Below, piece by piece: positions 4,831 to 39,325 of a stretch of DNA of 64,000 bases (the first letter of the stretch is position 1; each line of letters starts with the position of its first letter). Origin of the DNA: a phage; assembly GCA_029742005.1 (NCBI GenBank), contig GCA_029742005.1_4113.1; one strand, written 5' to 3'. A program made the translations under genes and the position numbers. The notes below the pieces were generated by a model. The model had not been told where the DNA came from. It saw only the letters and a program-made list of their open reading frames with translations, and made no database searches.

Positions 4831-5007
4831 ATGAAACTACGTACTCGTAATCGACTGATGGATGCACTGTACCATGAACAGCTTTCACTGAATGAAGTGA
4901 AGCGACAGTTAATGTACACATATCTGTTACCCGCTCGCATTGCAAAACAACGTGCTAAAGAATTGCTGAAAGAAGCAATCGAGTACTGGGAATCTGATTC
5001 GTACTAA
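4831..5007 (+). CDS. small hypothetical protein (58 aa)
   Basis: RBS TAAGGA before ATG; absent from ORF track because under 60 aa. Confidence 0.45.
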   Translation: MKLRTRNRLMDALYHEQLSLNEVKRQLMYTYLLPARIAKQRAKELLKEAIEYWESDSY

Positions 5008-5035
5008 TTGTCACGTTAATTAAGTGAGGCGATAA

Positions 5036-5287
5036 ATGAAAATTTTATTAGTTCTAATACTACTAATTGTTTTACCATTTACGTTAGTATCCCCTGGACT
5101 TGCATGGAATGTGTTTGTGTACTTAGTATGTACTATTGTAGTAAATGGTATCTTGTTCTTAGTTCTATTCATAAATGGAATAGGACACGGTGGAGGATGG
5201 ACCAGTACTGCTGATATTGTACATAAAACCACTATGTCTTTATTTGTAGTGTGGAATTTATTCTGGACTTGGTTTGTGTTCTTCTAA
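5036..5287 (+). CDS. small membrane protein
   Basis: RBS GTGAGG; strongly hydrophobic 83 aa. Confidence 0.55.
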   Translation: MKILLVLILLIVLPFTLVSPGLAWNVFVYLVCTIVVNGILFLVLFINGIGHGGGWTSTADIVHKTTMSLFVVWNLFWTWFVFF

Positions 5288-5299
5288 TTAAAAAAAAAT

Positions 5300-5671
5300 A
5301 TGAATATAGATTTGAAAGGTGCAACCCGAACTGTCATACTCATTGGGGAATATGCTATCAAGATTCCAACCTTTAAAAGTTGGAAGCTATTCTTAACAGG
5401 GATGATAGCTAACCTCAATGAACGTTCTTGGATGCAGTACTCCAAGCGTAGTGATAGTGGTATCTGCCCTACGTTGTGGTCATCATGTACTGGACTAGTA
5501 ACTGTACAGAAACGTTGTAAGCCAGTACAACATAGGGGTTTATTTTGGGTGGAGTTGTGTGCTTTAGCATTGAATTCAGAGTTAAGTACTGACTTCTTCT
5601 ATTCAGATGCGAAGCCAGAAAACTTTGGGTATCTGGGTGGTAAGTTAGTTAAACTTGATTATGGAGATTAA
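5300..5671 (+). CDS. small protein with kinase-like motifs
   Basis: GATRTV..YAIKIP then DAKPENFG and KLDYGD, resembling Gly-loop/Lys/catalytic loop/DFG; only 123 aa. Confidence 0.4.
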   Translation: MNIDLKGATRTVILIGEYAIKIPTFKSWKLFLTGMIANLNERSWMQYSKRSDSGICPTLWSSCTGLVTVQKRCKPVQHRGLFWVELCALALNSELSTDFFYSDAKPENFGYLGGKLVKLDYGD

Positions 5672-11203: not shown

Positions 11204-12373
11204 CTAAGCAGAAGGCATATCCTTCATCTTAATAAATGAAAATTGTGTACCAGTATTTGTGGTTTGATCAGTAAAATATGAATTACTACCAGCCCAGTAC
11301 AATTCATTATTAACTATACAATATATAACAGAACTCGAACTCTGTGAATACACACGACTTATATTTGATGGTTCTACTCCAGTACTGAACTGAACCGAAC
11401 CCAACTGTGAACTTGGTATCACATCAGTTGGTCTACCTAAACCATTAACACCAGCCCCACCACCACATGTATATACCCCAGTACTATCAGTTGATATATT
11501 AACATAACCATTCCCGGCATTTTCAAATAGTATTTCACTGGGAGCAACACCAAATCCTGTAAGATCTATTTTCCTGAATGTAGTGTAAACAGTAGAACCA
11601 CCAACACCTCTTCCACCATAATCATTAGAACCAGCCATATAGATACTATATCCAGAACTTCCTAAACATAATAACTGTACGTTGTCATATAATATTTGCA
11701 TAGATATAACGTTATCAGGAATACTCAATACCGTAAAAGTAGTTAAAGAAGAACTTCCAATATTACTACCAACCGATGTTCCACATCTGTAGTACTTACC
11801 GCCTTTTATATAATGGAACGATGAACCCCCTAACTTATGTGCTCCTATTGCACTTACCTCAGTATCTATGAGAATGGGAGATACAACTTTGTTATTAACA
11901 CCTAACTCAGATCTACTGTTCATACCGAACCCATATAAACGACCATCTAACATCAATATTAGTGTACTACCGGAAGTACCCGCTGACGTAAATTCTATAT
12001 TCTTTATTTGCGACACGTCAATACCTACAAATAATGAAGTTACTTCAGTCCAGTTAACATATGAACCACTAGCCCCAAAATATCCACCCATGTATAGACC
12101 TGCACAATATAATTTATTATCAACAGTCTTTATTAATGTACCGGATACACACGCCCAAAAATCATCAACTTCATAGGGTACATGTACCCAACCACCTAAT
12201 ACATCACTAGCATCCCCTGTACCTAATTTATAGTTCGAACCAGAACCACGCATGTACATATTCCCTGTACTATAAAGTAATCCGACATGTAATTGACTAC
12301 CATCCAATTTCTTTATTTCGGGAAGAGTTGGTTTAATATTTCCGTACTTTAACATTCTTCCAAAAGGTAACAT
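11204..12373 (-). CDS. RCC1-like repeat (beta-propeller) protein, MLPF family
   Basis: Start MLPFGRMLKYGN after AAAGGAGGAA; G-x-N-x-x-G-x-LG-like repeats. Confidence 0.6.
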   Translation of the reverse strand: MLPFGRMLKYGNIKPTLPEIKKLDGSQLHVGLLYSTGNMYMRGSGSNYKLGTGDASDVLGGWVHVPYEVDDFWACVSGTLIKTVDNKLYCAGLYMGGYFGASGSYVNWTEVTSLFVGIDVSQIKNIEFTSAGTSGSTLILMLDGRLYGFGMNSRSELGVNNKVVSPILIDTEVSAIGAHKLGGSSFHYIKGGKYYRCGTSVGSNIGSSSLTTFTVLSIPDNVISMQILYDNVQLLCLGSSGYSIYMAGSNDYGGRGVGGSTVYTTFRKIDLTGFGVAPSEILFENAGNGYVNISTDSTGVYTCGGGAGVNGLGRPTDVIPSSQLGSVQFSTGVEPSNISRVYSQSSSSVIYCIVNNELYWAGSNSYFTDQTTNTGTQFSFIKMKDMPSA

Positions 12374-12399
12374 AATTCCTCCTTTATTCATTATACTAT

Positions 12400-12437
12400 A
12401 TTTAATACAAAAAGAAAAGCCAGTACAGAGTACTGGC
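12400..12437 (-). terminator. terminator hairpin GCCAGTAC-N3-GTACTGGC with T-run on minus strand
   Basis: Perfect 8-bp stem; minus-strand transcript reads hairpin then TTTTCTTTTT. Confidence 0.55.
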
Positions 12438-12444
12438 CTATATT

Positions 12445-13164
12445 TTAGACTGAATTGTTAGGATAATATCTCCCACGTCCCCATATTATTCGCACAGCAC
12501 CACCACCAGCAGCCGTATAAGAAAAATTATCCCATATACTACCACCACCACCATACATCTTACCAGCACCACCACTACCAGCACCACCATTATATGAACC
12601 ATCGTATCTACCGCCAATACCATTAGCACCTTGAACAATGATACCAGTACCACCACCCGTACCAATGAACGAGGTATTATAGAATGCACCACCACCGCCG
12701 CCGCCGCCAGCACCATTTTCACCAGTGATTGCATCTCCGTTACCACCTTTACCAGTGTAGCCACCAGCACCACCACCAATGACTGCACCACCACTTACAC
12801 CAGCGTTGCCCCCATTACCACCACCATCATTAATAGCGTTAGCAGCTTTCCCACCTAGTCCACCAACCCTATATTCACCAGTGAAGCTAACACATAGTTT
12901 TTCAGTTCCACGATATAAACCGTTTTCAACTGGTGTAGTAGTGTTGGGATGTGTAAGAGAAACACTTAAGTACTCACCACTAGTAACCGGAATATTATTA
13001 CGCCACGATAAGCCGCCACCAGCACCACGTTGACCACCCGGCGAAATAACACATACTGATATTTCGGTAACGCCAGCAGGAACTGTAAATTGTGTTGTTC
13101 CTATTGTCGTGATTAATTGTTCACCATGTGGCTTATATTCAATTTTATTCCCTCCTTTATTCAT
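12445..13164 (-). CDS. glycine-rich repeat protein (possible fibre-like structural protein)
   Basis: 239 aa, long GGxGG runs in C-terminal two thirds; same upstream module as RCC1 genes. Confidence 0.55.
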   Translation of the reverse strand: MNKGGNKIEYKPHGEQLITTIGTTQFTVPAGVTEISVCVISPGGQRGAGGGLSWRNNIPVTSGEYLSVSLTHPNTTTPVENGLYRGTEKLCVSFTGEYRVGGLGGKAANAINDGGGNGGNAGVSGGAVIGGGAGGYTGKGGNGDAITGENGAGGGGGGGAFYNTSFIGTGGGTGIIVQGANGIGGRYDGSYNGGAGSGGAGKMYGGGGSIWDNFSYTAAGGGAVRIIWGRGRYYPNNSV

Positions 13165-13180
13165 TATAATATATTTAATA

Positions 13181-13211
13181 CAAAAAAGAAAAGCCAGTAC
13201 TCTGTACTGGC
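13181..13211 (-). terminator. terminator hairpin GCCAGTAC-N3-GTACTGGC with T-run
   Basis: Same hairpin as 12419-12437. Confidence 0.55.
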
Positions 13212-13218
13212 TTTTACA

Positions 13219-14409
13219 TTACAATTGTCTAGGTGTATCCAGTACATATCTATTTGTACGAGGACCACCATCATCATGCGTTCCGGTTGAATATATATTT
13301 TTCATATCAGCAGTTAGGAAAGTACGATACGAACCGCGATATATTTTAATTTTATCATACATAGAATATGTTATTCCTGACGGCAATGGACATGCAGTAA
13401 ATTTACCAATGGTAACATTAGAACCAACACCTAATGTACCAGCATAACCACTCGCATTTAAACCAGTTGCATATACACCTGTACTCGTAACTAGTATACT
13501 AGATTGTGATGCATATCCAGTATGGATTGAATAATAAGTTCCTGATGGTAATGTAGTACTATTATTCCCTAATACTGCTAGTGCTGTACTATTCGTAGTG
13601 TTATTACCCCATGCCCCATTATTAGCTAATCCACCAACTAGAAACTGACGTGCTCCTGTATTTGGATTCTCCACTAAAGCACTGACAGCACCAAATGAAC
13701 AAACAGTATATTGTAATGTTTTTGTATATGTGGTACTTGGCTTATACAAAGTATATTCATTAAATGGTGTCCATGTGGTACTAGTACTTATGCCAGATGT
13801 ACTACCACCAATATATAAATTATTTTGTGTATCAAAAAACATTGCACAGTAATTTGTTGACTGTATTTGTGCAATATCTACATCTGGTGTTACCGCTTTA
13901 ACAAATGAACCATCTGATATTTGATAAGTAGTTCCTGTACCATCTGCGAATTGTCTAGCACTATTCCACCCTGTACTCCATATTGTATTATTATCCATTA
14001 AGAAAGTAAACCATGTAGTACCTGCATACATCTGTTTAATTGAAGTACTTGAACTTTGTTTGTACAATTTTTCAATATATTGGTTATAACTTAAAAATGA
14101 TGTAGTACTAGTTTCTAAACCAATATGACTACCATATCCACAATAAAAATAATTTAAGTCCTTATCTTGAACTAACAAAGTTCCTTGTGTCATCCAGCAA
14201 TCTTTGACATTTTCTCTAATTAATGTCCACGACCTTACTGCATTATTATTTCCTCTACCAAACTTCCCAAAACTATTACTGCCTCGTGCGTATAGTTGAC
14301 CGTCGGTATAAAGTACAACAACCTCAGTATCAGTTGGTATTATTTTCTTAATTTGAAGAGGTTCAGGTGTGATATTCCCATAATCAAACATTCTAACAAA
14401 AGGTAACAT
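13219..14409 (-). CDS. RCC1-like repeat protein, MLPF family
   Basis: MLPFVRMFDYGN; RBS AAGGAGGAAAT; repeats such as YARGSNSFGKFGRGNN. Confidence 0.6.
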   Translation of the reverse strand: MLPFVRMFDYGNITPEPLQIKKIIPTDTEVVVLYTDGQLYARGSNSFGKFGRGNNNAVRSWTLIRENVKDCWMTQGTLLVQDKDLNYFYCGYGSHIGLETSTTSFLSYNQYIEKLYKQSSSTSIKQMYAGTTWFTFLMDNNTIWSTGWNSARQFADGTGTTYQISDGSFVKAVTPDVDIAQIQSTNYCAMFFDTQNNLYIGGSTSGISTSTTWTPFNEYTLYKPSTTYTKTLQYTVCSFGAVSALVENPNTGARQFLVGGLANNGAWGNNTTNSTALAVLGNNSTTLPSGTYYSIHTGYASQSSILVTSTGVYATGLNASGYAGTLGVGSNVTIGKFTACPLPSGITYSMYDKIKIYRGSYRTFLTADMKNIYSTGTHDDGGPRTNRYVLDTPRQL

Positions 14410-14478
14410 ATTTCCTCCTTATTCATTATACTATATTTAATACAAATAAGAATGCCAGTATCAAGTACTGGCATTATG

Positions 14479-15588
14479 TTATTTTGGTAAATCAATTTTA
14501 GTAAAGACTGCAACATCCTCGATTGCACCTGGAATGGCGTAATACGATCCAGTACTATACACATCTCCATTTTTGGTTAATATCGATGTCAAACCATCAC
14601 TAAAAAGAACATCCCTAATCTCACTAACTTCAACGGGTAATTGTAAATTGGTAGCACTATATATAGCACCAGTTTGAGAATTGTTTAATCCCAAACCACG
14701 GTTCGCCCCAACACCCTTCTGATATGTACTAGTAATTACCATTTGTGTAGCAGTATTTAAGGCAGGTGAATTCGTCATAAACAACGGAGAACTATTAGGC
14801 AAAGTACTTACAGGAACGGCACGGAATGTAGTCGTGCCTGAACTAAGAAAGTTTGGAGTTTGACCACATACGAAATATGATGTACCATTATAGTAATTGA
14901 ATGCATTACCACCAATGGCTGCATCGATTACACCAGAACTACGCAATCCCCAAGTGTTAATTTGTGTTTGGTTCCCCGTACCATGCTGTCCACTACTATT
15001 CCATCCAGAACTATATAGCTTATTATCTAATGTAAGATACATACTATCATTCGCATTGGTCATTACTTTACGAACGTTCGTAGCACATTGAGTTAATGTG
15101 TAAATTGATGAGGAACCAATACCCAAAGAACCACGATATCCATTATCTCCTGCACCATAGAGTACTGAATTAGTGCTAAGTACAAATATTAAACCATTTG
15201 TACATACAATATTAGCAATTTCACTTACTGGTATAGCATTGGTAAACCAATTAGTCCTTTCAACTAATACAGTACTGTAAGAAGTAGTTGTAGAAGATGA
15301 GAACCAGTACGTTTGACCTGATGTCCATATCGTATTATCATTTTTAATAATAACAAGTGTACGATCACCCACGAAAAAATTAGAAACATCTGCACTTACT
15401 AATATCCATGAAGATACCGTGTTGGTATTACCATTTCCAGATTCACCACCTTGATTTCTACCTATGTAATATAAATCATGTGAATCAGTCAATAAGAATT
15501 GACCTTGTGTAGAAGCACCAACTTTAATTATATTTTTAGGACCAGGTACAATATTTCCGTACTTAACCATTCTTGCAAAAGGTAACAT
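14479..15588 (-). CDS. RCC1-like repeat protein, MLPF family
   Basis: MLPFARMVKYGN start; 369 aa. Confidence 0.6.
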   Translation of the reverse strand: MLPFARMVKYGNIVPGPKNIIKVGASTQGQFLLTDSHDLYYIGRNQGGESGNGNTNTVSSWILVSADVSNFFVGDRTLVIIKNDNTIWTSGQTYWFSSSTTTSYSTVLVERTNWFTNAIPVSEIANIVCTNGLIFVLSTNSVLYGAGDNGYRGSLGIGSSSIYTLTQCATNVRKVMTNANDSMYLTLDNKLYSSGWNSSGQHGTGNQTQINTWGLRSSGVIDAAIGGNAFNYYNGTSYFVCGQTPNFLSSGTTTFRAVPVSTLPNSSPLFMTNSPALNTATQMVITSTYQKGVGANRGLGLNNSQTGAIYSATNLQLPVEVSEIRDVLFSDGLTSILTKNGDVYSTGSYYAIPGAIEDVAVFTKIDLPK

Positions 15589-15598
15589 AATTCTCTCC

Positions 15599-16729
15599 TT
15601 AATTTAATAATGCCCCTGGCAAATCCACTTTGACGAATTGTGCATATGCTGAGGAATTTTGATCAAAGTTTGGTCCCAATCCATAAAATGAGCTAATGCC
15701 GTCTTCATTTGTGTATATGATATAAACGTTCTTTACATCATTTCCGCATATAAATCGAATGTCTTTCGTTTGTGTTCCCGCTGGAACATTACGAAGGTTC
15801 ACAACGCCATTACTTGCATTGTTATCAGCCGACGCAATTGGTAATTGATTTTGACCATATTGACCACGCATATTTTTTGCATCTAAACCAAACACAGTAT
15901 TTGATACCGCACCAACTTTCAAAAATGAACCAAAACTATTATTGAATGACTTTGGAAATGTACCACTATAAACACTTCTCCCATCTGATAATACCGCTGA
16001 ACTGAATTTCCCGTTATTCGATATGGCAAATTCATTGTAAGGAAGTGTACCCATTTTGGTATATACAGAATATGAATTAGTGGAAGTATTATCAATAATC
16101 TTATTACCATTATATCCAATACCATACTGGTATCCGTCTGCATCTTGAACTATACACAAAGGACCACTTGGGGTTTGTGTCAACGAAACAACACGTTCAA
16201 CTTGTATATCACCAAATGTATTTCTTCGCCATGTTCTATCTATTATAGTACTAGTATTACCCAAAGATAATTCCACACTATATAATAGATTGTTTTCAGT
16301 AAAAATGGCAACATAATATGCGTGGTTAATAACTTGCTTCATCCCAGCATCAATAACTTCCTGTGGAATATGATCAGTAACATCCAACCAATCAAGGTTA
16401 GATGATGCAATATCTGGAGTACTGAATTTGTCAAATCTAGTTGAGCCACAAACTAGCACTCTATCATCATTTGTCAAAGCCACTGTGCTAGTCTGCATAT
16501 TAGAACTGAATGATTTAACATTACTAATGTTAGACTTGTACCAACCCTTATCAGCAGCACCCACCGTGAATCCGGTTCCCATTGATCCACTTGTACTTGT
16601 ACCATAAGCCCACATCTCACCACTATATGTTAGTGCCATACAGTGGCTTCCATTTGCTTGGAAATCCTTTATACCAGTGGGAGCAACCACTGTATTCCCA
16701 TAATCAAACATTCTAACAAAAGGTAACAT
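15599..16729 (-). CDS. RCC1-like repeat protein, MLPF family
   Basis: MLPFVRMFDYGN after GGAGAT; track start MEILV is the SD region. Confidence 0.6.
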   Translation of the reverse strand: MLPFVRMFDYGNTVVAPTGIKDFQANGSHCMALTYSGEMWAYGTSTSGSMGTGFTVGAADKGWYKSNISNVKSFSSNMQTSTVALTNDDRVLVCGSTRFDKFSTPDIASSNLDWLDVTDHIPQEVIDAGMKQVINHAYYVAIFTENNLLYSVELSLGNTSTIIDRTWRRNTFGDIQVERVVSLTQTPSGPLCIVQDADGYQYGIGYNGNKIIDNTSTNSYSVYTKMGTLPYNEFAISNNGKFSSAVLSDGRSVYSGTFPKSFNNSFGSFLKVGAVSNTVFGLDAKNMRGQYGQNQLPIASADNNASNGVVNLRNVPAGTQTKDIRFICGNDVKNVYIIYTNEDGISSFYGLGPNFDQNSSAYAQFVKVDLPGALLN

Positions 16730-16804
16730 AACTAAAATCTCCATATAATAATTATAATGTATTTACAAAAAAATACCAGTACATATTTCAGTACTGGCAT
16801 TTTG

Positions 16805-17932
16805 TTAAAATGGTAAATCTATTTGTTTAGTAAATGTCATACTTAGTGGTATTGAACACATTGACGCATTTCTCCCATTTAAATTGGACGGAGGCTGTCC
16901 GTTCATCCATATATTGGTATCGTCGTAAAAAGTACTCCACCACGTAGAACCTTCCGTATGAAGATTAATATTAAAATCAGGGAATTGACATTCTTGAAAA
17001 ACATCAAAAAACGGGATAGATGATACACTACTACCAGTAAATGGAGTGTAGCCTGTTGACATTAATTTATTAGTATCCGAATTTACCAAAAAGATAACAG
17101 AACCAGTATTGAATGGTGAATATTTTGGATACAAATTACTCATATCACCGATAGTGAAGTTGATATCAAATATTTTACTATGCTTACCAGTTCCTGAAAG
17201 TGTAGTACCAGTTACATATATTTTATTATCAGTTGTTCCCATGACAAACCCAATTCCAAATCCCACACAAAATGTTATGTCATATGGTATATTATCAAAG
17301 AGTGGGACAAACGTTGTGGCATCACCAGTAGTAGCTTTTATTTGATAGCTATTATTTGCCCCAGCACCCCAAACAGTACCATTTGATTTCACTTTGAATA
17401 TACTATCTCCTATGTAGTGACCGTATATACTATCAACTTCAGTATCAAGTTTTGTCCATTGTGATACAAAGTTTTTATGCCCTAAACCTAAACAACCATT
17501 GCGGTTTAGTCCCCTGCCGTATAGTGTACCATCATTCATCAGTACAAATGTTGTGTATCCACAAAGCATTTTTTTGATTTGTGTAACATCAATACCAGCA
17601 AAAAAACCACTCCAATCAGTATATCCTTGTTGGATTGCGTTTGATTTGGTGAATGACATAGTTGGTCCTGAACCATATATTTTACCATCTTTTATAATCA
17701 CTGAATAAGAACCTAACCATACATCTTGAACATTCTCACTAATTGTTTTCAATTCACCATATGCAGAGAATGGAGTACTTTGCCCTGCACTATATGATGA
17801 ATCTTCACCGTGTGCATATAATGTTCCATTTTCTGTTAGAATCATTTCCAAATATACACAATTGACAATTTTCTTTATTTTATTAACTTCTATTTTATTT
17901 CCGTACGCTAACATCCTTGCAAAAGGTAACAT
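16805..17932 (-). CDS. RCC1-like repeat protein, MLPF family
   Basis: MLPFARMLAYGN; YGRGLNRNGCLGLGH repeat. Confidence 0.6.
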   Translation of the reverse strand: MLPFARMLAYGNKIEVNKIKKIVNCVYLEMILTENGTLYAHGEDSSYSAGQSTPFSAYGELKTISENVQDVWLGSYSVIIKDGKIYGSGPTMSFTKSNAIQQGYTDWSGFFAGIDVTQIKKMLCGYTTFVLMNDGTLYGRGLNRNGCLGLGHKNFVSQWTKLDTEVDSIYGHYIGDSIFKVKSNGTVWGAGANNSYQIKATTGDATTFVPLFDNIPYDITFCVGFGIGFVMGTTDNKIYVTGTTLSGTGKHSKIFDINFTIGDMSNLYPKYSPFNTGSVIFLVNSDTNKLMSTGYTPFTGSSVSSIPFFDVFQECQFPDFNINLHTEGSTWWSTFYDDTNIWMNGQPPSNLNGRNASMCSIPLSMTFTKQIDLPF

Positions 17933-18007
17933 AACTAAAATCTCCATATAATAATTATAATGTATTTACAAAAAAATACCAGCACATATTTCAGTACTGG
18001 TATAATG

Positions 18008-19180
18008 TTATGGTAAAATAATAGCTTGTAACGAACTCATACCCAATGTTGGAACACTCGCCTGTGGTGCTGGTGCATTCACTTTTGGTGATGAAACCGC
18101 ATAAGTCATTCCTGTACCCAAATCTGGATCAAAAACTACAGAACAATAATCCCCATTGTATATAAGTCCATTAGTATATCCTTGTACACTTTGAATGCAT
18201 TTCGTGAACGTACCAATGTCAGTAGTGGCATTTATTAAGTTCCTCCCACGGTAGCCACATGTGTATATGAAATTATCATCACCTATGTACATACTCGCAT
18301 TCCCAGAAGAACTACATAGATAAGACATATAAGCACGCATGTTTTTAGGAGCAACTGACAATGTACCAGCATAGAATTTATTATTCATACCCGAAATATC
18401 ACCATCACCCAAAGCACCAAAACTCCCCCAACCAGTACCATAATATCTCTTATCACTCAAGAATATAATACAGTTGTTATTACACATCTTGACTTGATAT
18501 ATCAATGAAGGATCAACCCCAGGGAATGATTCAGTGTATGTTAGAACAGCCAGATCAGTACTGGCATTACATTGATGATATGTATTAGTACCAGCGGACA
18601 ATATTGTACCATCAACTAATAGAATCCTCGAAGTGCCAGTACCAGCAATACAAGCAACAGCATTACCTGTATATATTTTTCTGAAAGTAAAGAAACCAAC
18701 AGTCTTACTCCCCTGTCCACTCCAACCAGTATTATCAACACCACATGCCCATACTGAACCATCTTGCATGATCATCATTACACCATAGCGTTCTATCGAA
18801 ATATAGACAATCTTCGTAGTATCAACTGCACTAAATCTAGAAGTTATATCAGTCCAAACCTTTACACTCACCGCCGTCGCACCGAAAGTAGGATCTTCCC
18901 CTGCTATCATTATCCTACCATTGTTAGTCAGATACATTGTCTGACTATAACCAGTACTACAAAACTTAACACTATCAGTCTCTGGAACTTTTAACCACTC
19001 GTTGTAACGTGTTACGTTAGTGTTATTATCTAACTGATAATAGTTATTCATCCCAGATACATATAACACACCATCCTTTATTAAACTATAAGTCGCACTA
19101 TAGTCACTACAGGTATAACGTGTACCCACAGGTCGCTCAACGACGTTCCCATATTCTAACATCCTTACAAAAGGCAACAT
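18008..19180 (-). CDS. RCC1-like repeat protein, MLPF family
   Basis: MLPFVRMLEYGN; no clear SD; start uncertain. Confidence 0.5.
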   Translation of the reverse strand: MLPFVRMLEYGNVVERPVGTRYTCSDYSATYSLIKDGVLYVSGMNNYYQLDNNTNVTRYNEWLKVPETDSVKFCSTGYSQTMYLTNNGRIMIAGEDPTFGATAVSVKVWTDITSRFSAVDTTKIVYISIERYGVMMIMQDGSVWACGVDNTGWSGQGSKTVGFFTFRKIYTGNAVACIAGTGTSRILLVDGTILSAGTNTYHQCNASTDLAVLTYTESFPGVDPSLIYQVKMCNNNCIIFLSDKRYYGTGWGSFGALGDGDISGMNNKFYAGTLSVAPKNMRAYMSYLCSSSGNASMYIGDDNFIYTCGYRGRNLINATTDIGTFTKCIQSVQGYTNGLIYNGDYCSVVFDPDLGTGMTYAVSSPKVNAPAPQASVPTLGMSSLQAIILP

Positions 19181-19221
19181 AACTAAATACCAGAACATAT
19201 TTCAGTACTGGTATCGTAGCG

Positions 19222-20364
19222 TTAAAATGGCATCTTAACCTCTTTATATACTAATATATCACCGGATAAACCAGGAAACGCAGAACCATTACCACATGCA
19301 TATATAGTACTGTCATTCCACGCCGCTTGATGGTAATTACCTATAGTACATTTATAATTCGATAAATCAGTCACACCAGGTGTTAGTACATAATATACTG
19401 GTCCACTAGGTAAATTAAAATCAAATCTACCAAAGTAGTTCAAACCAGATGAATAGGACTTGTCATTAGCAAATATTACAGTACCATCTTCTGTAAAAGA
19501 ACTGTGAGAAATGTCTTTGAGATTGTTCACAACACCAGACGGTATTGATGTATTCAACGTAAAGGACGTCAATGGTGCTGCACTCGGTGTGTTGTTCGCC
19601 GTGTAACCATAATATGCATAACCAGCTACATATACACTCGAATCTGAACAAAATAAAAATGCACTCCTATAACCCAACCTAATACTCTCTATAGTCTTAC
19701 TAAAAGTAACTTTAGTAAAGGTAGGAACTAAACCACTATATCCTACCCCACATGTACCAAAATCATTCTTCCCAGTACTGTACAATTCGTTATTATTTGT
19801 AAGGTAAAATGACGCAGCAGCACCGCTATCTAAAGTACTGTAAACGTCTTTTACATTACTCGCAATCAATTTAAATGCACTCAATACGGTAGCCGAACCA
19901 TTGTTAGACAGCGTTGTTGAATCCGTGCCTTGTCCTATTGTATATAAATCTCCAGTACTAGTCAAAACAAATATACCATTAGTCGCCATAACAATTCTGT
20001 CATTCTTTAAATTAAATGAACTAAAAAGTGTACTTATATCAGTAAAGGTAGTATAACGCCCACTCTGCCCTATACTCGATAAATTCCCACTCAAATAAAC
20101 CTTATTATCATTACCAACAGCTACATAACAACCCCACCCAGCATATATCTGATCAATGCCTTGTATCGGTATTTGTAACCATTCACTACCAGTTACCGAA
20201 GCAGTACTTCCAGTTCCAAGTTCACCAGAGTTATTAGCTCCGAATACATATAAATTCCCACTATCCGATAAAACAACTGTATTACCAACTCCAGTTTTTA
20301 TATCCTTGATACCATTCTTAGGAGCAACATTCCCATAATCAAACATTCTAACAAAAGGTAACAT
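19222..20364 (-). CDS. RCC1-like repeat protein, MLPF family
   Basis: MLPFVRMFDYGN; RBS GGAGGGAAAT. Confidence 0.6.
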   Translation of the reverse strand: MLPFVRMFDYGNVAPKNGIKDIKTGVGNTVVLSDSGNLYVFGANNSGELGTGSTASVTGSEWLQIPIQGIDQIYAGWGCYVAVGNDNKVYLSGNLSSIGQSGRYTTFTDISTLFSSFNLKNDRIVMATNGIFVLTSTGDLYTIGQGTDSTTLSNNGSATVLSAFKLIASNVKDVYSTLDSGAAASFYLTNNNELYSTGKNDFGTCGVGYSGLVPTFTKVTFSKTIESIRLGYRSAFLFCSDSSVYVAGYAYYGYTANNTPSAAPLTSFTLNTSIPSGVVNNLKDISHSSFTEDGTVIFANDKSYSSGLNYFGRFDFNLPSGPVYYVLTPGVTDLSNYKCTIGNYHQAAWNDSTIYACGNGSAFPGLSGDILVYKEVKMPF

Positions 20365-20436
20365 ATTTCCCTCCTTTATTCATTATACTATATTTAATCA
20401 AAAATAAAAGCCAGTACTTGAGTACTGGCATAGTAT

Positions 20437-21564
20437 TCAAAAAGGTAAATCAATTTGCTTAGTAATAATAGTATCTAACGGTATTGAACACAATGAGAAA
20501 TTCTTTCCACCCGTATTTTCAGGATTATATCCATTCATCCATACATTATTACCTTCGTAAAATGTATTCCAGTATAAAGCCCCACTATATCGTGTATTCG
20601 AATTGAACGATGGAAAGTTGAATTCTTGGAATGATGTAAAATATGGAATGGAACTTGAACTACTTCCCGTAAATGGGGTATACCCAGTTGCTATTAGTTT
20701 GTTTGTATCTGCATTAATTAAAAATACAACACTAGTCGAATAGTCCAACGAATCAGGATGATATATATTACTCATATCACCTATAGTAAAACCAACATCA
20801 AAAACTTTACTATGTGCACCACTACCAGCAAAAGTAGTTCCAGTTGCATATATTTTATTATCAGATGTTATCATTACAAAACCAACACCAGAAACAAAAC
20901 TGCATTTTATATCATAAGATATATCATCAAACAACGGAACAAATGTGGTTGCATCACCCGATGTTGCTTTAACTTGAAAGCTGTTATTTGAACCTGAACC
21001 ATATACAGTTCCATCGTTTTTAATCTTAAACAATGTATCGCCAAGGTAACCGCCAAATATATTATCCACATTAGTGTCAAGTACAGTCCACGCTGAAACA
21101 TAATTTTTATGTCCTAAACCTAATGCACCACTTCGATTCCATCCTCTTCCATAAAGTGTTCCGTCTTTCATTAATATAAATGCTGTATAACCACATAACA
21201 TTTTTTTAATTTGGGTAACATCTATACCAGTGAAATACACAGCCCAGTCAGTATATCCTTGTTGGAAAGTATCAGAATTCGTGAATGCATATGTTGGACC
21301 TGAACCATATATTTTATCACCTTTAATAACAACGGAAAACAATCCTAACCATAAGTCATCAACTTCAGTTGTGATTTGTTGAACTGCTCCTAACGATACA
21401 AACTTTGTACTTAAACCCGCATTATAGTTTGAATCTTCACCGTGTGCATATACAGTGCCATCTTGCATTAGAAACATTTCAAGAGTGCCACTAACAACAC
21501 TTTTCTTTATATTATTAACTTCGATTATATTCCCATAATCAAACATTCTAACAAAAGGTAACAT
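20437..21564 (-). CDS. RCC1-like repeat protein, MLPF family
   Basis: MLPFVRMFDYGN; YGRGWNRSGALGLGH repeat; closest paralog of 16805-17932. Confidence 0.6.
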   Translation of the reverse strand: MLPFVRMFDYGNIIEVNNIKKSVVSGTLEMFLMQDGTVYAHGEDSNYNAGLSTKFVSLGAVQQITTEVDDLWLGLFSVVIKGDKIYGSGPTYAFTNSDTFQQGYTDWAVYFTGIDVTQIKKMLCGYTAFILMKDGTLYGRGWNRSGALGLGHKNYVSAWTVLDTNVDNIFGGYLGDTLFKIKNDGTVYGSGSNNSFQVKATSGDATTFVPLFDDISYDIKCSFVSGVGFVMITSDNKIYATGTTFAGSGAHSKVFDVGFTIGDMSNIYHPDSLDYSTSVVFLINADTNKLIATGYTPFTGSSSSSIPYFTSFQEFNFPSFNSNTRYSGALYWNTFYEGNNVWMNGYNPENTGGKNFSLCSIPLDTIITKQIDLPF

Positions 21565-21636
21565 AATTCCCTCCTTTATTCATTATACTTTATTTAATAC
21601 AAATAAGAATTCCTGTATCGAGTACTGGCATTCAAT

Positions 21637-22785
21637 TTATTGTAAAAAGGACATATCTACTTCTGTATAACTAAGAATGTTTTGACCAGCAATTCCACCC
21701 ATTACTACTATTGCATACCCACAATAATATAATTTCCCAGTGTCCGTAAGTATAAGTGAACCAGAAGGTGTTCTTACCAAATTACACGAACTATTAAAAG
21801 AAGTATACGAAGGAGTATAGGAGTACTGATTAATATTATTACCAACACCTAATTGACCACCCCTATTCGAACCAGATGCATAAAGTACTTCATCTGCTTT
21901 GACAATATGTGATGCCATGTTAGCAACACATGCATATACACCATATACCCCTGTACTCAATAATGTAGGAGTCTTGTATTGAATATCAGTACTAGTAGAT
22001 GTTCCACCTGTGCCAAATTCATTACCATATTGTGCTCCGTACTGCTTCCCACATGCGTACAAATTATTATCCGATTTGATAAAAAATGTACTCTGATAAC
22101 TTACATCAAAATCTATAACATCCGAAGAAATCATCGTTACCCCAGTAATCGAAGTTTGATTACCAGTACCCAACTGGTAGTAATAGTTAAAACCACAACC
22201 CCATAAAGTATTATCTTCTTTTAGGTATATGTTACCAACTGCCTTTTTAACCGAAGTTATAGTATCTACCCTTTTGAATGTGTTAAAAGAATTAATGTTT
22301 GTACCATCACCAAATGATGATAGGTTCGAGTTATTGTTAACTCCACAACAATACAACGTACCATCGTTTGTTATCAAATTCACCTTCATATCATTAAAAC
22401 TACTCATGTATTTTATATCAGAAACATTAATACCACCTGATGTTATCCATGTAGTACAGTCCGTCCATAACGTCTTCCTATCAGTTACCCCAGTAAATGC
22501 CTTCGTGTTACCAGTGATAAACACTTTACCAGTACCCTTTTCTTCATACAATTGACAATCACTACTGTTATCTTCCAATAAAACCCTCTGTACATTCTCT
22601 GCACAAAGAATAAATTTACTCGATGCTACACCTGTTCCAGTACCCCAATTCGTCGCAGAAGATGCATACAACTTATGTGTTAGTGTATCATGCAAATACA
22701 TAGAACCACTAGAATATATTTTAAAACGCCCAGAGTTGGTAGGTGCTTCATTCCCATAATCAAACATTCTAACAAAAGGTAACAT
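21637..22785 (-). CDS. RCC1-like repeat protein, MLPF family
   Basis: MLPFVRMFDYGN after AAAGGAGGAAAT; track start MNKGGN covers the SD. Confidence 0.6.
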   Translation of the reverse strand: MLPFVRMFDYGNEAPTNSGRFKIYSSGSMYLHDTLTHKLYASSATNWGTGTGVASSKFILCAENVQRVLLEDNSSDCQLYEEKGTGKVFITGNTKAFTGVTDRKTLWTDCTTWITSGGINVSDIKYMSSFNDMKVNLITNDGTLYCCGVNNNSNLSSFGDGTNINSFNTFKRVDTITSVKKAVGNIYLKEDNTLWGCGFNYYYQLGTGNQTSITGVTMISSDVIDFDVSYQSTFFIKSDNNLYACGKQYGAQYGNEFGTGGTSTSTDIQYKTPTLLSTGVYGVYACVANMASHIVKADEVLYASGSNRGGQLGVGNNINQYSYTPSYTSFNSSCNLVRTPSGSLILTDTGKLYYCGYAIVVMGGIAGQNILSYTEVDMSFLQ

Positions 22786-22827
22786 ATTTCCTCCTTTATT
22801 CATTATATCATATTTACCCCATAACCC

Positions 22828-36280: not shown

Positions 36281-36285
36281 AAAAA

Positions 36286-36319
36286 GTGGTTGACTCCGGT
36301 CAGCCATTTTGCTATTATA
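36286..36319 (+). terminator. terminator-promoter composite (hairpin with TTGACT, then TATTAT)
   Basis: TGGTTGACTCCGGTCAGCCA hairpin; -35 36290-36295; -10 36314-36319. Confidence 0.55.
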
Positions 36320-37150: not shown

Positions 37151-37187
37151 CAGTACTATTGACAATGATTGATAGTACTGGCATAAT
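37151..37187 (+). promoter_or_regulatory. promoter TTGACA-17-CATAAT bracketed by IR CAGTACTAT/ATAGTACTG
   Basis: -35 37159-37164; -10 37182-37187. Confidence 0.55.
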
Positions 37188-37231: not shown

Positions 37232-37375
37232 ATGATCGCACTAGATTCATTCATCGACGCAGTACTGGCAAAAACTGGCGAGGATCTGACCGCAGAACAA
37301 TACGCGATGATCGAACAATGTCAGCAAAACGGTAAATCGGTGAAAGATACTGTTAAGATTATCCGCAAGATGTAA
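37232..37375 (+). CDS. small hypothetical protein (47 aa)
   Basis: RBS AGAGAGAAA; hairpin with Chi octamer downstream. Confidence 0.45.
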   Translation: MIALDSFIDAVLAKTGEDLTAEQYAMIEQCQQNGKSVKDTVKIIRKM

Positions 37376-37474: not shown

Positions 37475-37678
37475 TTGACAATGATTAGCATGAAATCAGT
37501 ACAAAAACAAATAGAAACATTATCAAAAATTAAACGTAAACAATACTCCTTAGAATATAATATCAATGGTAACTATCATCTAATGAAAGAAAATAATTTT
37601 ATAGTCATTGATGAATCATTGCAAATTATTAGTATAGTACTGAAAGCATTAATCAATGACAGAAAAAAGTTAAAATAA
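37475..37678 (+). CDS. hypothetical protein
   Basis: ORF only; start uncertain (alternative ATG at 37490). Confidence 0.4.
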   Translation: MTMISMKSVQKQIETLSKIKRKQYSLEYNINGNYHLMKENNFIVIDESLQIISIVLKALINDRKKLK

Positions 37679-37935
37679 TGGCTGTAGGATTCGCGAAAGA
37701 CGGGGCCGAGCAAGACGAGATTAACGCAGTGATTCAGGCCGCCGTAAACCACGCTAGAAAGCAAATTAACGCACAAATAGAATCACTGATACATTGCCGC
37801 GACTGCGGCGATATAATCCCTGAGAAACGACGCCAGGCCGTTAAGGGATGTAAGTACTGCATAACTTGCCAGGAGGATCATGATAGTACTTTTAAACGTC
37901 CCCCGCGTAATTGTTGGCATAGATCTATGAGATAA
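37678..37935 (+). CDS. TraR/DksA-type C4 zinc-finger protein
   Basis: CRDCGDIIPEKRRQAVKGCKYCITCQ = CxxC-N17-CxxC typical of the family. Confidence 0.55.
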   Translation: MAVGFAKDGAEQDEINAVIQAAVNHARKQINAQIESLIHCRDCGDIIPEKRRQAVKGCKYCITCQEDHDSTFKRPPRNCWHRSMR

Positions 37936-38016
37936 AAAGTATTGACAGTACTATCCAGTAGTGTTATAGTACTTACATCAAGGGGAAACATCTTCCCCTA
38001 CTAAGAGGAAATGAAA

Positions 38017-39278: not shown

Positions 39279-39292
39279 AAAGAATTGAAAAA

Positions 39293-39325
39293 GGGATTGA
39301 CTCCGGTCAGTCCCTTTGCTATTAT
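39293..39325 (+). terminator. terminator-promoter composite
   Basis: GGGATTGACTCCGGTCAGTCCC hairpin; TTGACT-17-TATTAT. Confidence 0.6.

What the first reader, a model, noticed from the sequence alone, without database searches (positions are those of the whole stretch)
37678..37935. TraR/DksA-type zinc-finger protein among early ORFans
The CxxC-N17-CxxC pattern (CRDCGD..(17)..CKYCITC) with surrounding basic residues matches the small TraR/DksA-like C4 zinc-finger proteins that bind the RNA polymerase secondary channel. A phage-encoded member could reprogramme host transcription.
Basis: inference. Interest (0 to 1): 0.4.

Follow-up and report, generated by a model that had tools for sequence, protein, structure and literature searches.

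The report
Phage TraR/DksA-family zinc-finger protein, YbiI-like
This is a real, conserved 85-residue phage gene of the known TraR/DksA zinc-finger family, most like E. coli YbiI, so it probably binds the host RNA polymerase, but it lacks the acidic motif that TraR needs to act, and public records already annotate it this way.

Summary
The ORF at 37678..37935 (+) exists as described. It encodes 85 aa with CxxC-N17-CxxC (C40, C43, C61, C64).

**Family.** It passes the Pfam zf-dskA_traR threshold (42.2 bits against 24.9). Its best solved relatives are E. coli YbiI (2KGO) and TraR bound to RNA polymerase. All four cysteines and the TraR R48/R49 equivalents (R51/R52) are invariant in 57 homologues. 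dN/dS is 0.08-0.22. An AlphaFold model gives the TraR layout: long N-terminal helix, zinc domain, short C-terminal helix.

**Host and setting.** The window is an Asteriusvirus jumbo coliphage (121Q/PBECO4/phAPEC6 group). The gene sits among small unknown ORFs with perfect sigma-70 promoters. In a relative it lies inside the 21.5 kb terminal repeat.

The family assignment is right, but ordinary. The identical protein is already named "TraR/DksA C4-type zinc finger protein".

**Departures from TraR:**
- It belongs to the uncharacterised YbiI-like subfamily, with an N-terminal MAxG[FW] motif.
- It lacks the DxxDxA motif required for TraR and lambda Orf73 activity.
- It carries an invariant C-terminal tail, PRNCWHRSMR.
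- In this phage a ~330 bp deletion removed its own promoter and ribosome-binding site.

RNA polymerase binding is inferred, not shown.

The parts
37678..37935 (+). Coding sequence of the 85-aa TraR/DksA-family (YbiI-like) zinc-finger protein, stop codon included
   Evidence: ORF list and sequence. Pfam PF01258 42.2 bits, above the gathering score of 24.9. PHROG_54. dN/dS 0.08-0.22 among Asteriusvirus orthologues. GC 47.7% against 35.3% for the window.
37678..37713 (+). N-terminal motif MAVGFAKDGAEQ (residues 1-12), the YbiI-subfamily signature MAxG[FW]...; it takes the place of TraR's DxxDxA tip
   Evidence: M1, A2 and G4 are invariant; K7, D8, G9, A10 and Q12 are at least 90% conserved in 57 homologues. 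The motif is shared with E. coli YbiI and with YbiI-like proteins of four unrelated phages. TraR, lambda Orf73 and K139 orf26 have DxxDxA instead.
37693..37770 (+). Predicted long N-terminal helix (residues 6-31), counterpart of the TraR helix that inserts into the RNAP secondary channel
   Evidence: AlphaFold2 model. Foldseek matches to TraR in RNAP complexes 6N57_M and 5W1S_M. TraR helix residues 2-27 are described in PMC6970531.
37795..37869 (+). C4 zinc-binding motif C40-x2-C43-x17-C61-x2-C64
   Evidence: All four cysteines are invariant in alignments A1, A2 and A3; C58 is variable. It is the only such pattern in the window.
37816..37833 (+). I47-P48-E49-K50-R51-R52, equivalent to TraR I44-P45-E46-A47-R48-R49 (contacts with the beta' rim helices and beta'Si3)
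   Evidence: I47, R51 and R52 are invariant; P48 and E49 are at least 90% conserved. The register comes from the phmmer alignment to TraR. The roles of TraR P45, E46, R48 and R49 are taken from PMC6970531 and PMC9239242.
37861..37890 (+). Predicted short C-terminal helix (residues 62-71), counterpart of the TraR C-helix that contacts the beta lobe-Si1
   Evidence: AlphaFold2 secondary structure. Q65 and D69 are invariant.
37891..37932 (+). Basic C-terminal tail FKRPPRNCWHRSMR (residues 72-85); TraR has no counterpart
   Evidence: RNCWHRSMR is identical in every shown member of the T4-like plus Asteriusvirus clade except P0018, which has RNCWHRTMR. Bacterial YbiI and other phage YbiI-like proteins carry YNRRGSKDSQLR there instead. 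The model predicts it as disordered, pLDDT about 51-63.
37670..37680 (+). Deletion junction: one copy of the 10-bp repeat TTAAAATAAT, giving a TAATG stop/start overlap with the upstream ORF
   Evidence: In BF17 a ~330 bp spacer with its own TTGACA-N17-CATAAT promoter and a GAGG Shine-Dalgarno lies between two copies of this repeat. Of the 34 Asteriusvirus records that span this point, 27 (121Q, PBECO4 and others) match in two pieces about 330 bp further apart, as in BF17; 7 (phAPEC6, G17, Sharanji, ECO103 4-12-1, EC22.5-2, UE-S1, ph0011) share the window's fused junction.
37159..37187 (+). Nearest upstream sigma-70-like promoter (TTGACA-N17-CATAAT with TG), inferred to drive ORFs 37232..37375, 37481..37678 and then this gene
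   Evidence: Promoter scan. No better promoter and no terminator-like site lies between it and 37678. That the three genes share one transcript is inferred.
37481..37678 (+). Upstream 65-aa ORF of unknown function (phrog_36844), whose stop overlaps the start of the zinc-finger gene
   Evidence: It corresponds to the annotated CDS at 4850..5047 of locus L001 (BF17).
37942..37970 (+). Next promoter (TTGACA-N17-TATAGT), which marks the end of the transcription unit's coding part
   Evidence: the sequence is.

Best explanation
The ORF encodes a small zinc-ribbon protein of the TraR/DksA family, of the YbiI-like subtype, carried by an Asteriusvirus jumbo coliphage.

Proposed mechanism:
1. It is transcribed by host sigma-70 RNA polymerase with the surrounding small genes soon after infection. 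In this phage that happens by read-through from the promoter at 37159 and translational coupling at the TAATG overlap.
2. Its long N-terminal helix enters the RNA polymerase secondary channel. The zinc domain docks on the beta' rim helices through the conserved IPExRR patch (R51/R52).
3. This changes the kinetics of transcription initiation, and/or excludes the host factors DksA, GreA and GreB, to the phage's benefit.

Shown: the gene is real and under purifying selection, it belongs to the family, the zinc ligands are conserved, the RNAP-docking arginines are conserved, and the predicted fold is TraR-like.

Inferred: early expression, RNAP binding, and the direction of the regulatory effect.

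Because the DxxDxA tip is absent, the effect on the polymerase need not be the TraR-type inhibition of rRNA promoters.
For: Family: Pfam PF01258 above threshold. PHROG_54. The best NCBIfam model is the YbiI equivalog NF008243, followed by the TraR subfamily TIGR02419.

Solved relatives: phmmer to PDB gives YbiI 2KGO at E 8.5e-13 and TraR 5W1S/6N57 at about 5e-6.

Structure: AF2 model with helix 6-31, a zinc domain and helix 62-71. The top Foldseek PDB hits are YbiI, RNAP-bound TraR (TM 0.52/0.60) and then DksA.

Conservation: C40, C43, C61, C64, I47, R51 and R52 are invariant; P48 and E49 are at least 90% conserved in 57 homologues. dN/dS is 0.08-0.22.

Distribution: about 160 phage records have matches at 60% identity or more. 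The ones I examined are Asteriusvirus and T4-like phages, where the gene sits downstream of tk/rI among small genes.

Context: ten perfect TTGACA-N16/17-TATAAT sites, all on the + strand, against 0.13 expected. The orthologue lies inside the 21.5 kb direct terminal repeat of vB_Ec-M-J. The related Rak2-like phage CBB is described as having RpoD-type early promoters and a gp55-like late sigma (PMC5259590); together with the consensus sigma-70 promoters here, this suggests dependence on host RNAP.

Precedent: five phage TraR homologues bind E. coli RNAP, and lambda Orf73 raises burst size (PMC9239242). YbiI rescued the dksA auxotrophy at high expression, as data not shown (PMC2613031).
Against: No DxxDxA. 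By register with the zinc domain, TraR D3, D6 and A8 correspond to A6, G9 and E11 here. D3N or D6N strongly reduces lambda Orf73 activity.

Scores fall below the curated cut-offs of both the TraR subfamily model (52.8 against 59.7) and the YbiI equivalog (81.7 against 96).

The most conserved segment, the C-terminal tail, has no counterpart in TraR, so an additional or different target is possible.

The model's confidence is only moderate (pLDDT 71.6), and it is low at both ends.

YbiI itself has no established function. In this phage the gene has lost its own promoter and Shine-Dalgarno sequence. No binding or expression data exist.
Confidence: 0.55

Rival explanations
1. It binds the RNAP secondary channel but acts as an inert plug rather than a TraR mimic. 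Without the acidic tip it would not remodel the active-site region. It would only exclude DksA/ppGpp and the Gre factors, for example to keep host RNAP from stringent-type shut-down during infection.
For: The docking residues R51/R52, P48 and E49 and the TraR-like fold are conserved, while the DxxDxA motif is absent. The equivalent aspartates of DksA are essential for function but not for binding to RNAP (PMC9239242). Rnk is a precedent for a channel binder that only competes.
Against: The N-terminal 12 residues are among the best-conserved in the protein, which argues that the tip does something specific. YbiI reportedly complemented the dksA auxotrophy at high level, which a pure competitor would not be expected to do.
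Confidence: 0.2
2. YbiI-like proteins, this one included, have a main target other than RNA polymerase. That target would be recognised through the invariant C-terminal tail and/or the MAxG[FW] N-terminus, and the zinc ribbon would be only a scaffold.
For: The tail is the most conserved segment. YNRRGSKDSQLR is almost unchanged in bacteria and in four unrelated phages whose remaining sequence is only 35-40% identical to this protein. PRNCWHRSMR is identical in every shown member of the T4-like/Asteriusvirus clade except P0018 (RNCWHRTMR). A Mosigvirus ORF keeps only the second CxxC plus the tail. Some zinc-finger family members do not act like DksA. [quoted passage not shown]
Against: No alternative target is known. 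The bacterial neighbourhoods examined are not conserved. The RNAP-contacting IPExRR patch is invariant.
Confidence: 0.15
3. In this particular phage the gene is a poorly expressed or dispensable passenger, because the deletion removed its promoter and ribosome-binding site.
For: The ~330 bp spacer with a TTGACA promoter and a GAGG Shine-Dalgarno that is present in BF17 is missing here, and most relatives match in two pieces the same distance apart. The region is rich in insertions and deletions.
Against: The ORF is intact, and it is full-length in the one deletion-allele phage checked at protein level, ECO103 4-12-1, at 95.3% amino-acid identity. dN/dS is low. The exact TAATG overlap allows translational coupling. 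The gene is kept in two phage groups whose synonymous sites are saturated.
Confidence: 0.07

Closest known systems
E. coli YbiI (PDB 2KGO; NCBIfam NF008243/PRK11019)
   Same: It is the best sequence and fold match (E 8.5e-13; Foldseek E 2.5e-5). The size is similar (85 against 88 aa). The N-terminal MAxG[FW]A.D motif, the C4 motif, IPxxRR and the single long helix plus zinc domain are shared.
   Different: Identity is only 38%. The score is below the equivalog cut-off (81.7 against 96). The invariant YbiI tail YNRRGSKDSQLR is replaced by PRNCWHRSMR. This gene is encoded by a virulent phage. YbiI's own function is unknown.
F-plasmid TraR (PDB 5W1S, 6N57) and lambda Orf73
   Same: Same Pfam family, the same three-part architecture, and the same CxxC-N17-CxxC motif. 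P45, E46, R48 and R49 are conserved as P48, E49, R51 and R52. All are small proteins of mobile elements of Proteobacteria. Lambda Orf73 matches at E 6e-5.
   Different: 26-27% identity. There is no DxxDxA tip; TraR has MSDEADEA and Orf73 has MADIIDSA. The N-terminus is three residues longer. There is an extra 14-residue conserved basic tail. The score is below the TIGR02419 cut-off. The host phage is a lytic jumbo phage, not a plasmid or a temperate phage.
DksA
   Same: Shared zinc-finger globular domain and, presumably, the same binding site on RNAP; DksA is a weaker Foldseek hit (7KHI_M).
   Different: DksA has about 151 aa with a two-helix coiled coil and needs ppGpp. This protein has a single helix and is half the size. 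NCBIfam DksA_like gives E 0.03 only.
YbiI-like proteins of other phages (Serratia phage BF, Erwinia pEa_SNUABM_14, Aeromonas BUCT695, Proteus 3H10_20)
   Same: Same subfamily, N-terminal motif, length and zinc motif. They too are found in large virulent phages.
   Different: They keep the bacterial-type tail YNRRGSKDSQLR. The Asteriusvirus/T4-like clade has its own tail.

Membership tests
Pfam PF01258 zf-dskA_traR (DksA/TraR C4-type zinc finger) | HMM score at or above the gathering threshold | tested here: met
   42.2 bits against 24.9, E 7.9e-11, residues 39-68.
Pfam PF01258 zf-dskA_traR (DksA/TraR C4-type zinc finger) | Four zinc-ligand cysteines as CxxC-N17-CxxC, conserved in homologues | tested here: met
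   C40, C43, C61 and C64 are invariant in 57 homologues and in TraR, YbiI and K139 orf26.
TraR-type regulators (F TraR, lambda Orf73; Gopalkrishnan et al.) | Three structural elements: N-terminal helix, globular zinc domain, C-terminal helix | tested here: met
   AF2 model: H6-31, zinc domain 38-60, H62-71. Foldseek to 6N57_M and 5W1S_M: prob 1.00, TM 0.52/0.60. Model confidence is moderate.
TraR-type regulators (F TraR, lambda Orf73; Gopalkrishnan et al.) | DxxDxA motif at the N-terminal tip (required for activity) | tested here: not met
   The N-terminus is MAVGFAKDGAEQ. In register, TraR D3, D6 and A8 correspond to A6, G9 and E11. The nearest acidic pattern is D8xxE11xD13, two residues out of register.
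TraR-type regulators (F TraR, lambda Orf73; Gopalkrishnan et al.) | Equivalents of R48 (rim helices) and R49 (beta'Si3) | tested here: met
   R51 and R52 are invariant; P48 and E49 (TraR P45 and E46) are at least 90% conserved.
TraR-type regulators (F TraR, lambda Orf73; Gopalkrishnan et al.) | C-terminal helix that contacts the beta lobe-Si1 | tested here: inconclusive
   A 10-residue helix is predicted (62-71) with Q65 and D69 invariant. The contact with RNAP cannot be assessed here.
TraR-type regulators (F TraR, lambda Orf73; Gopalkrishnan et al.) | Binds the RNAP secondary channel, competes with DksA, and regulates rrnB P1 without ppGpp | not testable with these tools
   This needs biochemistry. 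The only indirect support is the report that YbiI rescued the dksA auxotrophy at high expression (PMC2613031).
NCBIfam TIGR02419 C4_traR_proteo (phage/conjugal plasmid TraR subfamily) | Score at or above the curated cut-off | tested here: not met
   52.8 bits against a cut-off of 59.7.
YbiI (NCBIfam NF008243 equivalog) | Score at or above the equivalog cut-off | tested here: not met
   81.7 bits against 96. It is nevertheless the best-scoring model, covering residues 1-72.
YbiI (NCBIfam NF008243 equivalog) | N-terminal MAxG[FW] motif | tested here: met
   MAVGF here against MASGW in YbiI. M1, A2 and G4 are invariant across the subfamily.
YbiI (NCBIfam NF008243 equivalog) | C-terminal tail YNRRGSKDSQLR | tested here: not met
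   It is replaced by PRNCWHRSMR. Only an arginine nine residues from the end, the [LM] next to the end and the terminal R are shared.
DksA | A protein of about 150 aa with an N-terminal two-helix coiled coil carrying the tip motif | tested here: not met
   85 aa and a single N-terminal helix. NF033459 DksA_like gives E 0.03, 14.6 bits against a cut-off of 105.

The most novel reading that the evidence does not exclude
The YbiI-like branch is a functionally distinct class, not a TraR mimic. The branch includes bacterial YbiI, the YbiI-like proteins of several large virulent phages, and this T4-like/Asteriusvirus clade.

It has swapped the DxxDxA tip for an invariant MAxG[FW] N-terminus and has gained a nearly invariant C-terminal peptide (YNRRGSKDSQLR or PRNCWHRSMR). 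Through these it would act on RNA polymerase in a different way, for example by reaching the active site with a non-acidic tip, or by blocking DksA/ppGpp and Gre access so that the host cannot mount a stringent response. Alternatively it could engage a second, unknown partner.
Probability: 0.25. Interest if true: 0.55.

Novelty: new member of a known kind. Interest (0 to 1): 0.3.

Why it matters
TraR-type proteins let plasmids and temperate phages reset host transcription without ppGpp. Showing that large virulent phages (Asteriusvirus and many T4-like phages) use a relative for host take-over would extend that principle to lytic infection.

The modest added value here is the definition of a YbiI-like subtype. 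It lacks the catalytic-site acidic motif and has two strongly conserved terminal peptides. It would give a handle on the unknown function of E. coli YbiI.

As an annotation, however, the finding is routine. The identical protein and its orthologues already carry this name in public records.

Tried and rejected
**Recent capture from the host.** The ORF is GC-rich (47.7% against 35.3%, the top 0.5% of 258-nt windows). But blastn (word size 11) of the gene against 5,426 complete E. coli genomes found nothing. The T4-like homologues are equally GC-rich relative to their flanks. So any transfer is old, or the composition reflects the amino-acid content.

**A structured RNA in the region.** Rfam at gathering thresholds on the whole window gave no match. 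There are no tRNAs.

**A second copy in the window.** None was found.

**Function from bacterial gene neighbourhoods of YbiI-like genes.** One gene sits between trpE and selO/trpGDC, another next to a Gcw_chp gene. Nothing is conserved.

**Literature on YbiI or on DksA-like proteins of jumbo or T4-like phages.** I found only the 2009 'data not shown' remark. The 2017 PNAS mutagenesis paper on TraR is not held, so residue roles are taken from PMC6970531 and PMC9239242.

**Opposite-strand ORFs inside the gene** (37734..37862 and 37783..37920, - strand). These are mechanical ORFs with no support.

**Procedural points.**
- One search confirms YbiI residues 1-71 and about TraR residues 15-68.
- The TraR tip agrees with the D3, D6 and A8 numbering in the papers.
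- The lambda Orf73 tip was read from a lambda record.

Full report
**1. The observation.**
The + strand ORF 37678..37935 starts with ATG and encodes 85 residues. It contains C40-R-D-C43, 17 residues, then C61-I-T-C64. A fifth cysteine (C58) creates an alternative CKYC. This is the only CxxC-N15-19-CxxC pattern in the six-frame translation of the 64 kb window.

**2. Is it a gene?**
- The N-terminal twelve residues are conserved with bacterial YbiI, which fixes the start codon.
- Pairwise Nei-Gojobori estimates among four Asteriusvirus orthologues give dN/dS of 0.08-0.22.
- Against T4-like homologues the synonymous sites are saturated while the proteins stay 65-72% identical.
- The exact protein is already in public collections, named 'TraR/DksA C4-type zinc finger protein' (P0001).

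**3. Where it is.**
The window is an Asteriusvirus jumbo coliphage of the 121Q/PBECO4 group. A 241-nt segment across the upstream junction is 99.2% identical to phAPEC6.
- All ten neighbouring ORFs tested fall in PHROG families of unknown function, one of them with a weak secondary match to a 'DNA ligase' PHROG.
- The window holds ten perfect TTGACA-N16/17-TATAAT sites, all on the + strand, against 0.13 expected. Five of them lie within 3 kb of the gene.
- In vB_Ec-M-J the orthologue lies inside the annotated 21.5 kb direct terminal repeat. Several other records show the match twice, or label it as terminal repeat.
- The related Rak2-like phage CBB is described as having RpoD-type early promoters before short ORFs and a gp55-like late sigma factor (PMC5259590). 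With the consensus sigma-70 promoters here, that suggests dependence on host RNA polymerase.
- 'Early' is therefore a reasonable inference, not a measurement.

**4. What it is.**
- Pfam zf-dskA_traR scores 42.2 bits against a gathering score of 24.9.
- PHROG_54 'DksA-like zinc-finger protein' gives E 2.8e-18.
- Among NCBIfam models the best is the YbiI equivalog NF008243 (81.7 bits, cut-off 96). Next is the TraR subfamily TIGR02419 (52.8, cut-off 59.7), and DksA models are far behind.
- Against PDB sequences the best hits are YbiI (2KGO, E 8.5e-13) and TraR from RNAP complexes (5W1S and 6N57, E about 5e-6).
- An AlphaFold2 model built on 57 homologues has mean pLDDT 71.6. It shows a helix at 6-31, a zinc domain, a helix at 62-71 and a disordered tail.
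- The top Foldseek hits in the PDB are YbiI, RNAP-bound TraR (TM 0.52/0.60) and DksA.
- Family membership is therefore secure.

**5. How it compares with functional TraR.**
The literature defines three functional regions (PMC9239242; PMC6970531):
- the N-terminal helix with DxxDxA, which reaches the active site, where TraR S2 is 4.3 A from the Mg;
- the zinc domain with P45, E46, R48 and R49, which contacts the rim helices and beta'Si3;
- the C-terminal helix, which contacts the beta lobe-Si1.

The phmmer alignment sets the register at our residue = TraR residue + 3. The zinc-domain residues are kept: P48 and E49 are at least 90% conserved, and R51 and R52 are invariant. The tip is not kept: TraR D3, D6 and A8 fall on A6, G9 and E11.

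Instead, the subfamily has its own strongly conserved N-terminus, MAxG[FW]xx(D). It is three residues longer than TraR's and is shared with E. coli YbiI and with YbiI-like proteins of Serratia phage BF, Erwinia phage pEa_SNUABM_14, Aeromonas phage BUCT695 and Proteus phage 3H10_20. In contrast, lambda Orf73 (MADIIDSA), K139 orf26 and TraR carry DxxDxA.

In lambda Orf73, D3N or D6N strongly reduces inhibition of rrnB P1. The equivalent aspartates of DksA are needed for function but not for binding.

So binding to RNAP is plausible, but a TraR-type effect is not assured. The only functional datum for the subtype is that over-expressed YbiI rescued the amino-acid auxotrophy of a dksA mutant, reported as data not shown (PMC2613031).

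**6. The tail.**
After the C-terminal helix come 14 residues, FKRPPRNCWHRSMR. The last nine are identical in every shown member of the phage clade that joins Asteriusvirus and many T4-like phages (Dhakavirus, Marfavirus, Moonvirus and others), except P0018, which has RNCWHRTMR. Bacterial YbiI and the other phage YbiI-like proteins instead end in YNRRGSKDSQLR. That tail is almost unchanged even where the rest of the protein is only 35-40% identical to this one. TraR has no such tail. What it binds is unknown. This is the main unexplained feature.

**7. A local peculiarity.**
In BF17 a ~330 bp spacer separates the upstream 65-aa ORF from this gene. The spacer carries its own TTGACA-N17-CATAAT promoter and a GAGG Shine-Dalgarno. 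In fEgEco12 the same interval is annotated with a 48-aa ORF whose end overlaps the gene's start.

Of the 34 Asteriusvirus records that span this point, 27 (121Q, PBECO4 and others) match in two pieces the same extra distance apart, as in BF17.

In the window, and in 7 of those 34 records (phAPEC6, G17, Sharanji, ECO103 4-12-1, EC22.5-2, UE-S1, ph0011), the spacer is missing. The break lies exactly between two copies of TTAAAATAAT and leaves a TAATG stop/start overlap.

Expression here must therefore depend on the promoter at 37159 and on translational coupling. This is inferred. The ORF stays intact, and it is full-length at 95.3% amino-acid identity in ECO103 4-12-1, the one deletion-allele phage checked at protein level. 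That argues against loss of function.

**8. Composition.**
The gene has 47.7% GC against 35.3% for the window (top 0.5% of windows of its size). The T4-like homologues are similarly GC-rich relative to their flanks. There is no DNA-level match in complete E. coli genomes. An old transfer from a bacterial YbiI-like gene is possible but not demonstrated.

**9. Verdict.**
The thing is a member of a known family that public annotation already recognises.

Its most likely action is binding the secondary channel of host RNA polymerase early in infection. I put that mechanism at about 0.55, and family membership at above 0.95.

The rivals are:
- a non-regulatory plug that excludes DksA and the Gre factors (0.2);
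- a different target reached through the conserved termini (0.15);
- a dispensable passenger in this phage (0.07).

Interest is low to moderate. It is a routine annotation, with a modest lead in the distinct YbiI-like subtype.

Noticed in passing
window 37670-37680; L001 (BF17) 5040-5380: There is an insertion/deletion polymorphism of ~330 bp bounded by the 10-bp direct repeat TTAAAATAAT. BF17 carries a spacer with its own promoter and Shine-Dalgarno in front of the zinc-finger gene, and 27 of the 34 Asteriusvirus records that span the point match in two pieces the same distance apart. In fEgEco12 the interval is annotated with a 48-aa ORF. The window and 7 relatives lack the spacer.
   Followed up: yes
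window 4190, 27507, 30072, 36847, 38563, 39544, 39812, 40171, 40601, 43700 (all + strand): Ten perfect sigma-70 consensus promoters (TTGACA-N16/17-TATAAT) against 0.13 expected. Most share an extended AGTACTGTATAAT -10 region, so they form a repeated promoter cassette in front of small ORFs.
   Followed up: partly
window 36283-36318 and 39290-39325 (+): Two copies of a 12-bp-stem hairpin (AAAG(G/T)G(A/G)TTGACTCCGGTCAG(T/C)C(C/A)(C/T)TTT) are followed by GCTATTATAT. The stem contains a TTGACT -35-like hexamer, so a terminator-like hairpin overlaps a promoter-like site.
   Followed up: no
window 11204-22803 (- strand): A tandem array of ten ORFs: nine of 369-396 aa and one of 239 aa (12445..13164). 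Three of the long ORFs were scanned and all match RCC1-like repeat (beta-propeller) models; the two compared are only about 29% identical. This looks like a diverged paralogue family. The 239-aa ORF has no Pfam match and contains the GC-richest stretch of the window (about 12450-12700).
   Followed up: partly
L002 (Mosigvirus JS09) 1417-1581: JS09_077 is a 54-aa protein that probably corresponds to phrog_25948. It keeps only the second CxxC and the FKRxPRNCWHRSMR tail of the zinc-finger protein, joined to an unrelated N-terminus. Its first 47 residues match small ORFs in about 150 T4-like phages. It may be a chimeric remnant or a tail-only module.
   Followed up: partly
L007-L011 (Serratia phage BF, Aeromonas BUCT695, Erwinia pEa_SNUABM_14, Proteus 3H10_20) and bacterial P0046-P0058: The C-terminal peptide YNRRGSKDSQLR of YbiI is almost invariant across bacteria and unrelated phages, although the rest of the protein diverges to 35-40% identity. 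No function is known for it.
   Followed up: partly
window 37936-38010; L003 1367-1723; L004 1022-1378: In vB_Ec-M-J and fEgEco12 a GNAT acetyltransferase gene directly follows the zinc-finger gene, and several other relatives show an acetyltransferase under the wider match. It is absent from the window and from BF17. This is another sign that the region gains and loses genes easily.
   Followed up: no
L005 (Dhakavirus UP19) 2501-2758; L006 (Marfavirus EI) 2501-2758: In T4-like phages the homologue sits at a conserved place downstream of tk and rI among small genes. In UP19 it lies close to a gene annotated 'starvation-inducible transcriptional regulator'.
   Followed up: no
L013 4001-4267: In one bacterial contig the YbiI-like gene lies between trpE and selO, followed by trpG, trpD and trpC. 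Another bacterium has it next to a Gcw_chp gene. The context is not conserved.
   Followed up: no
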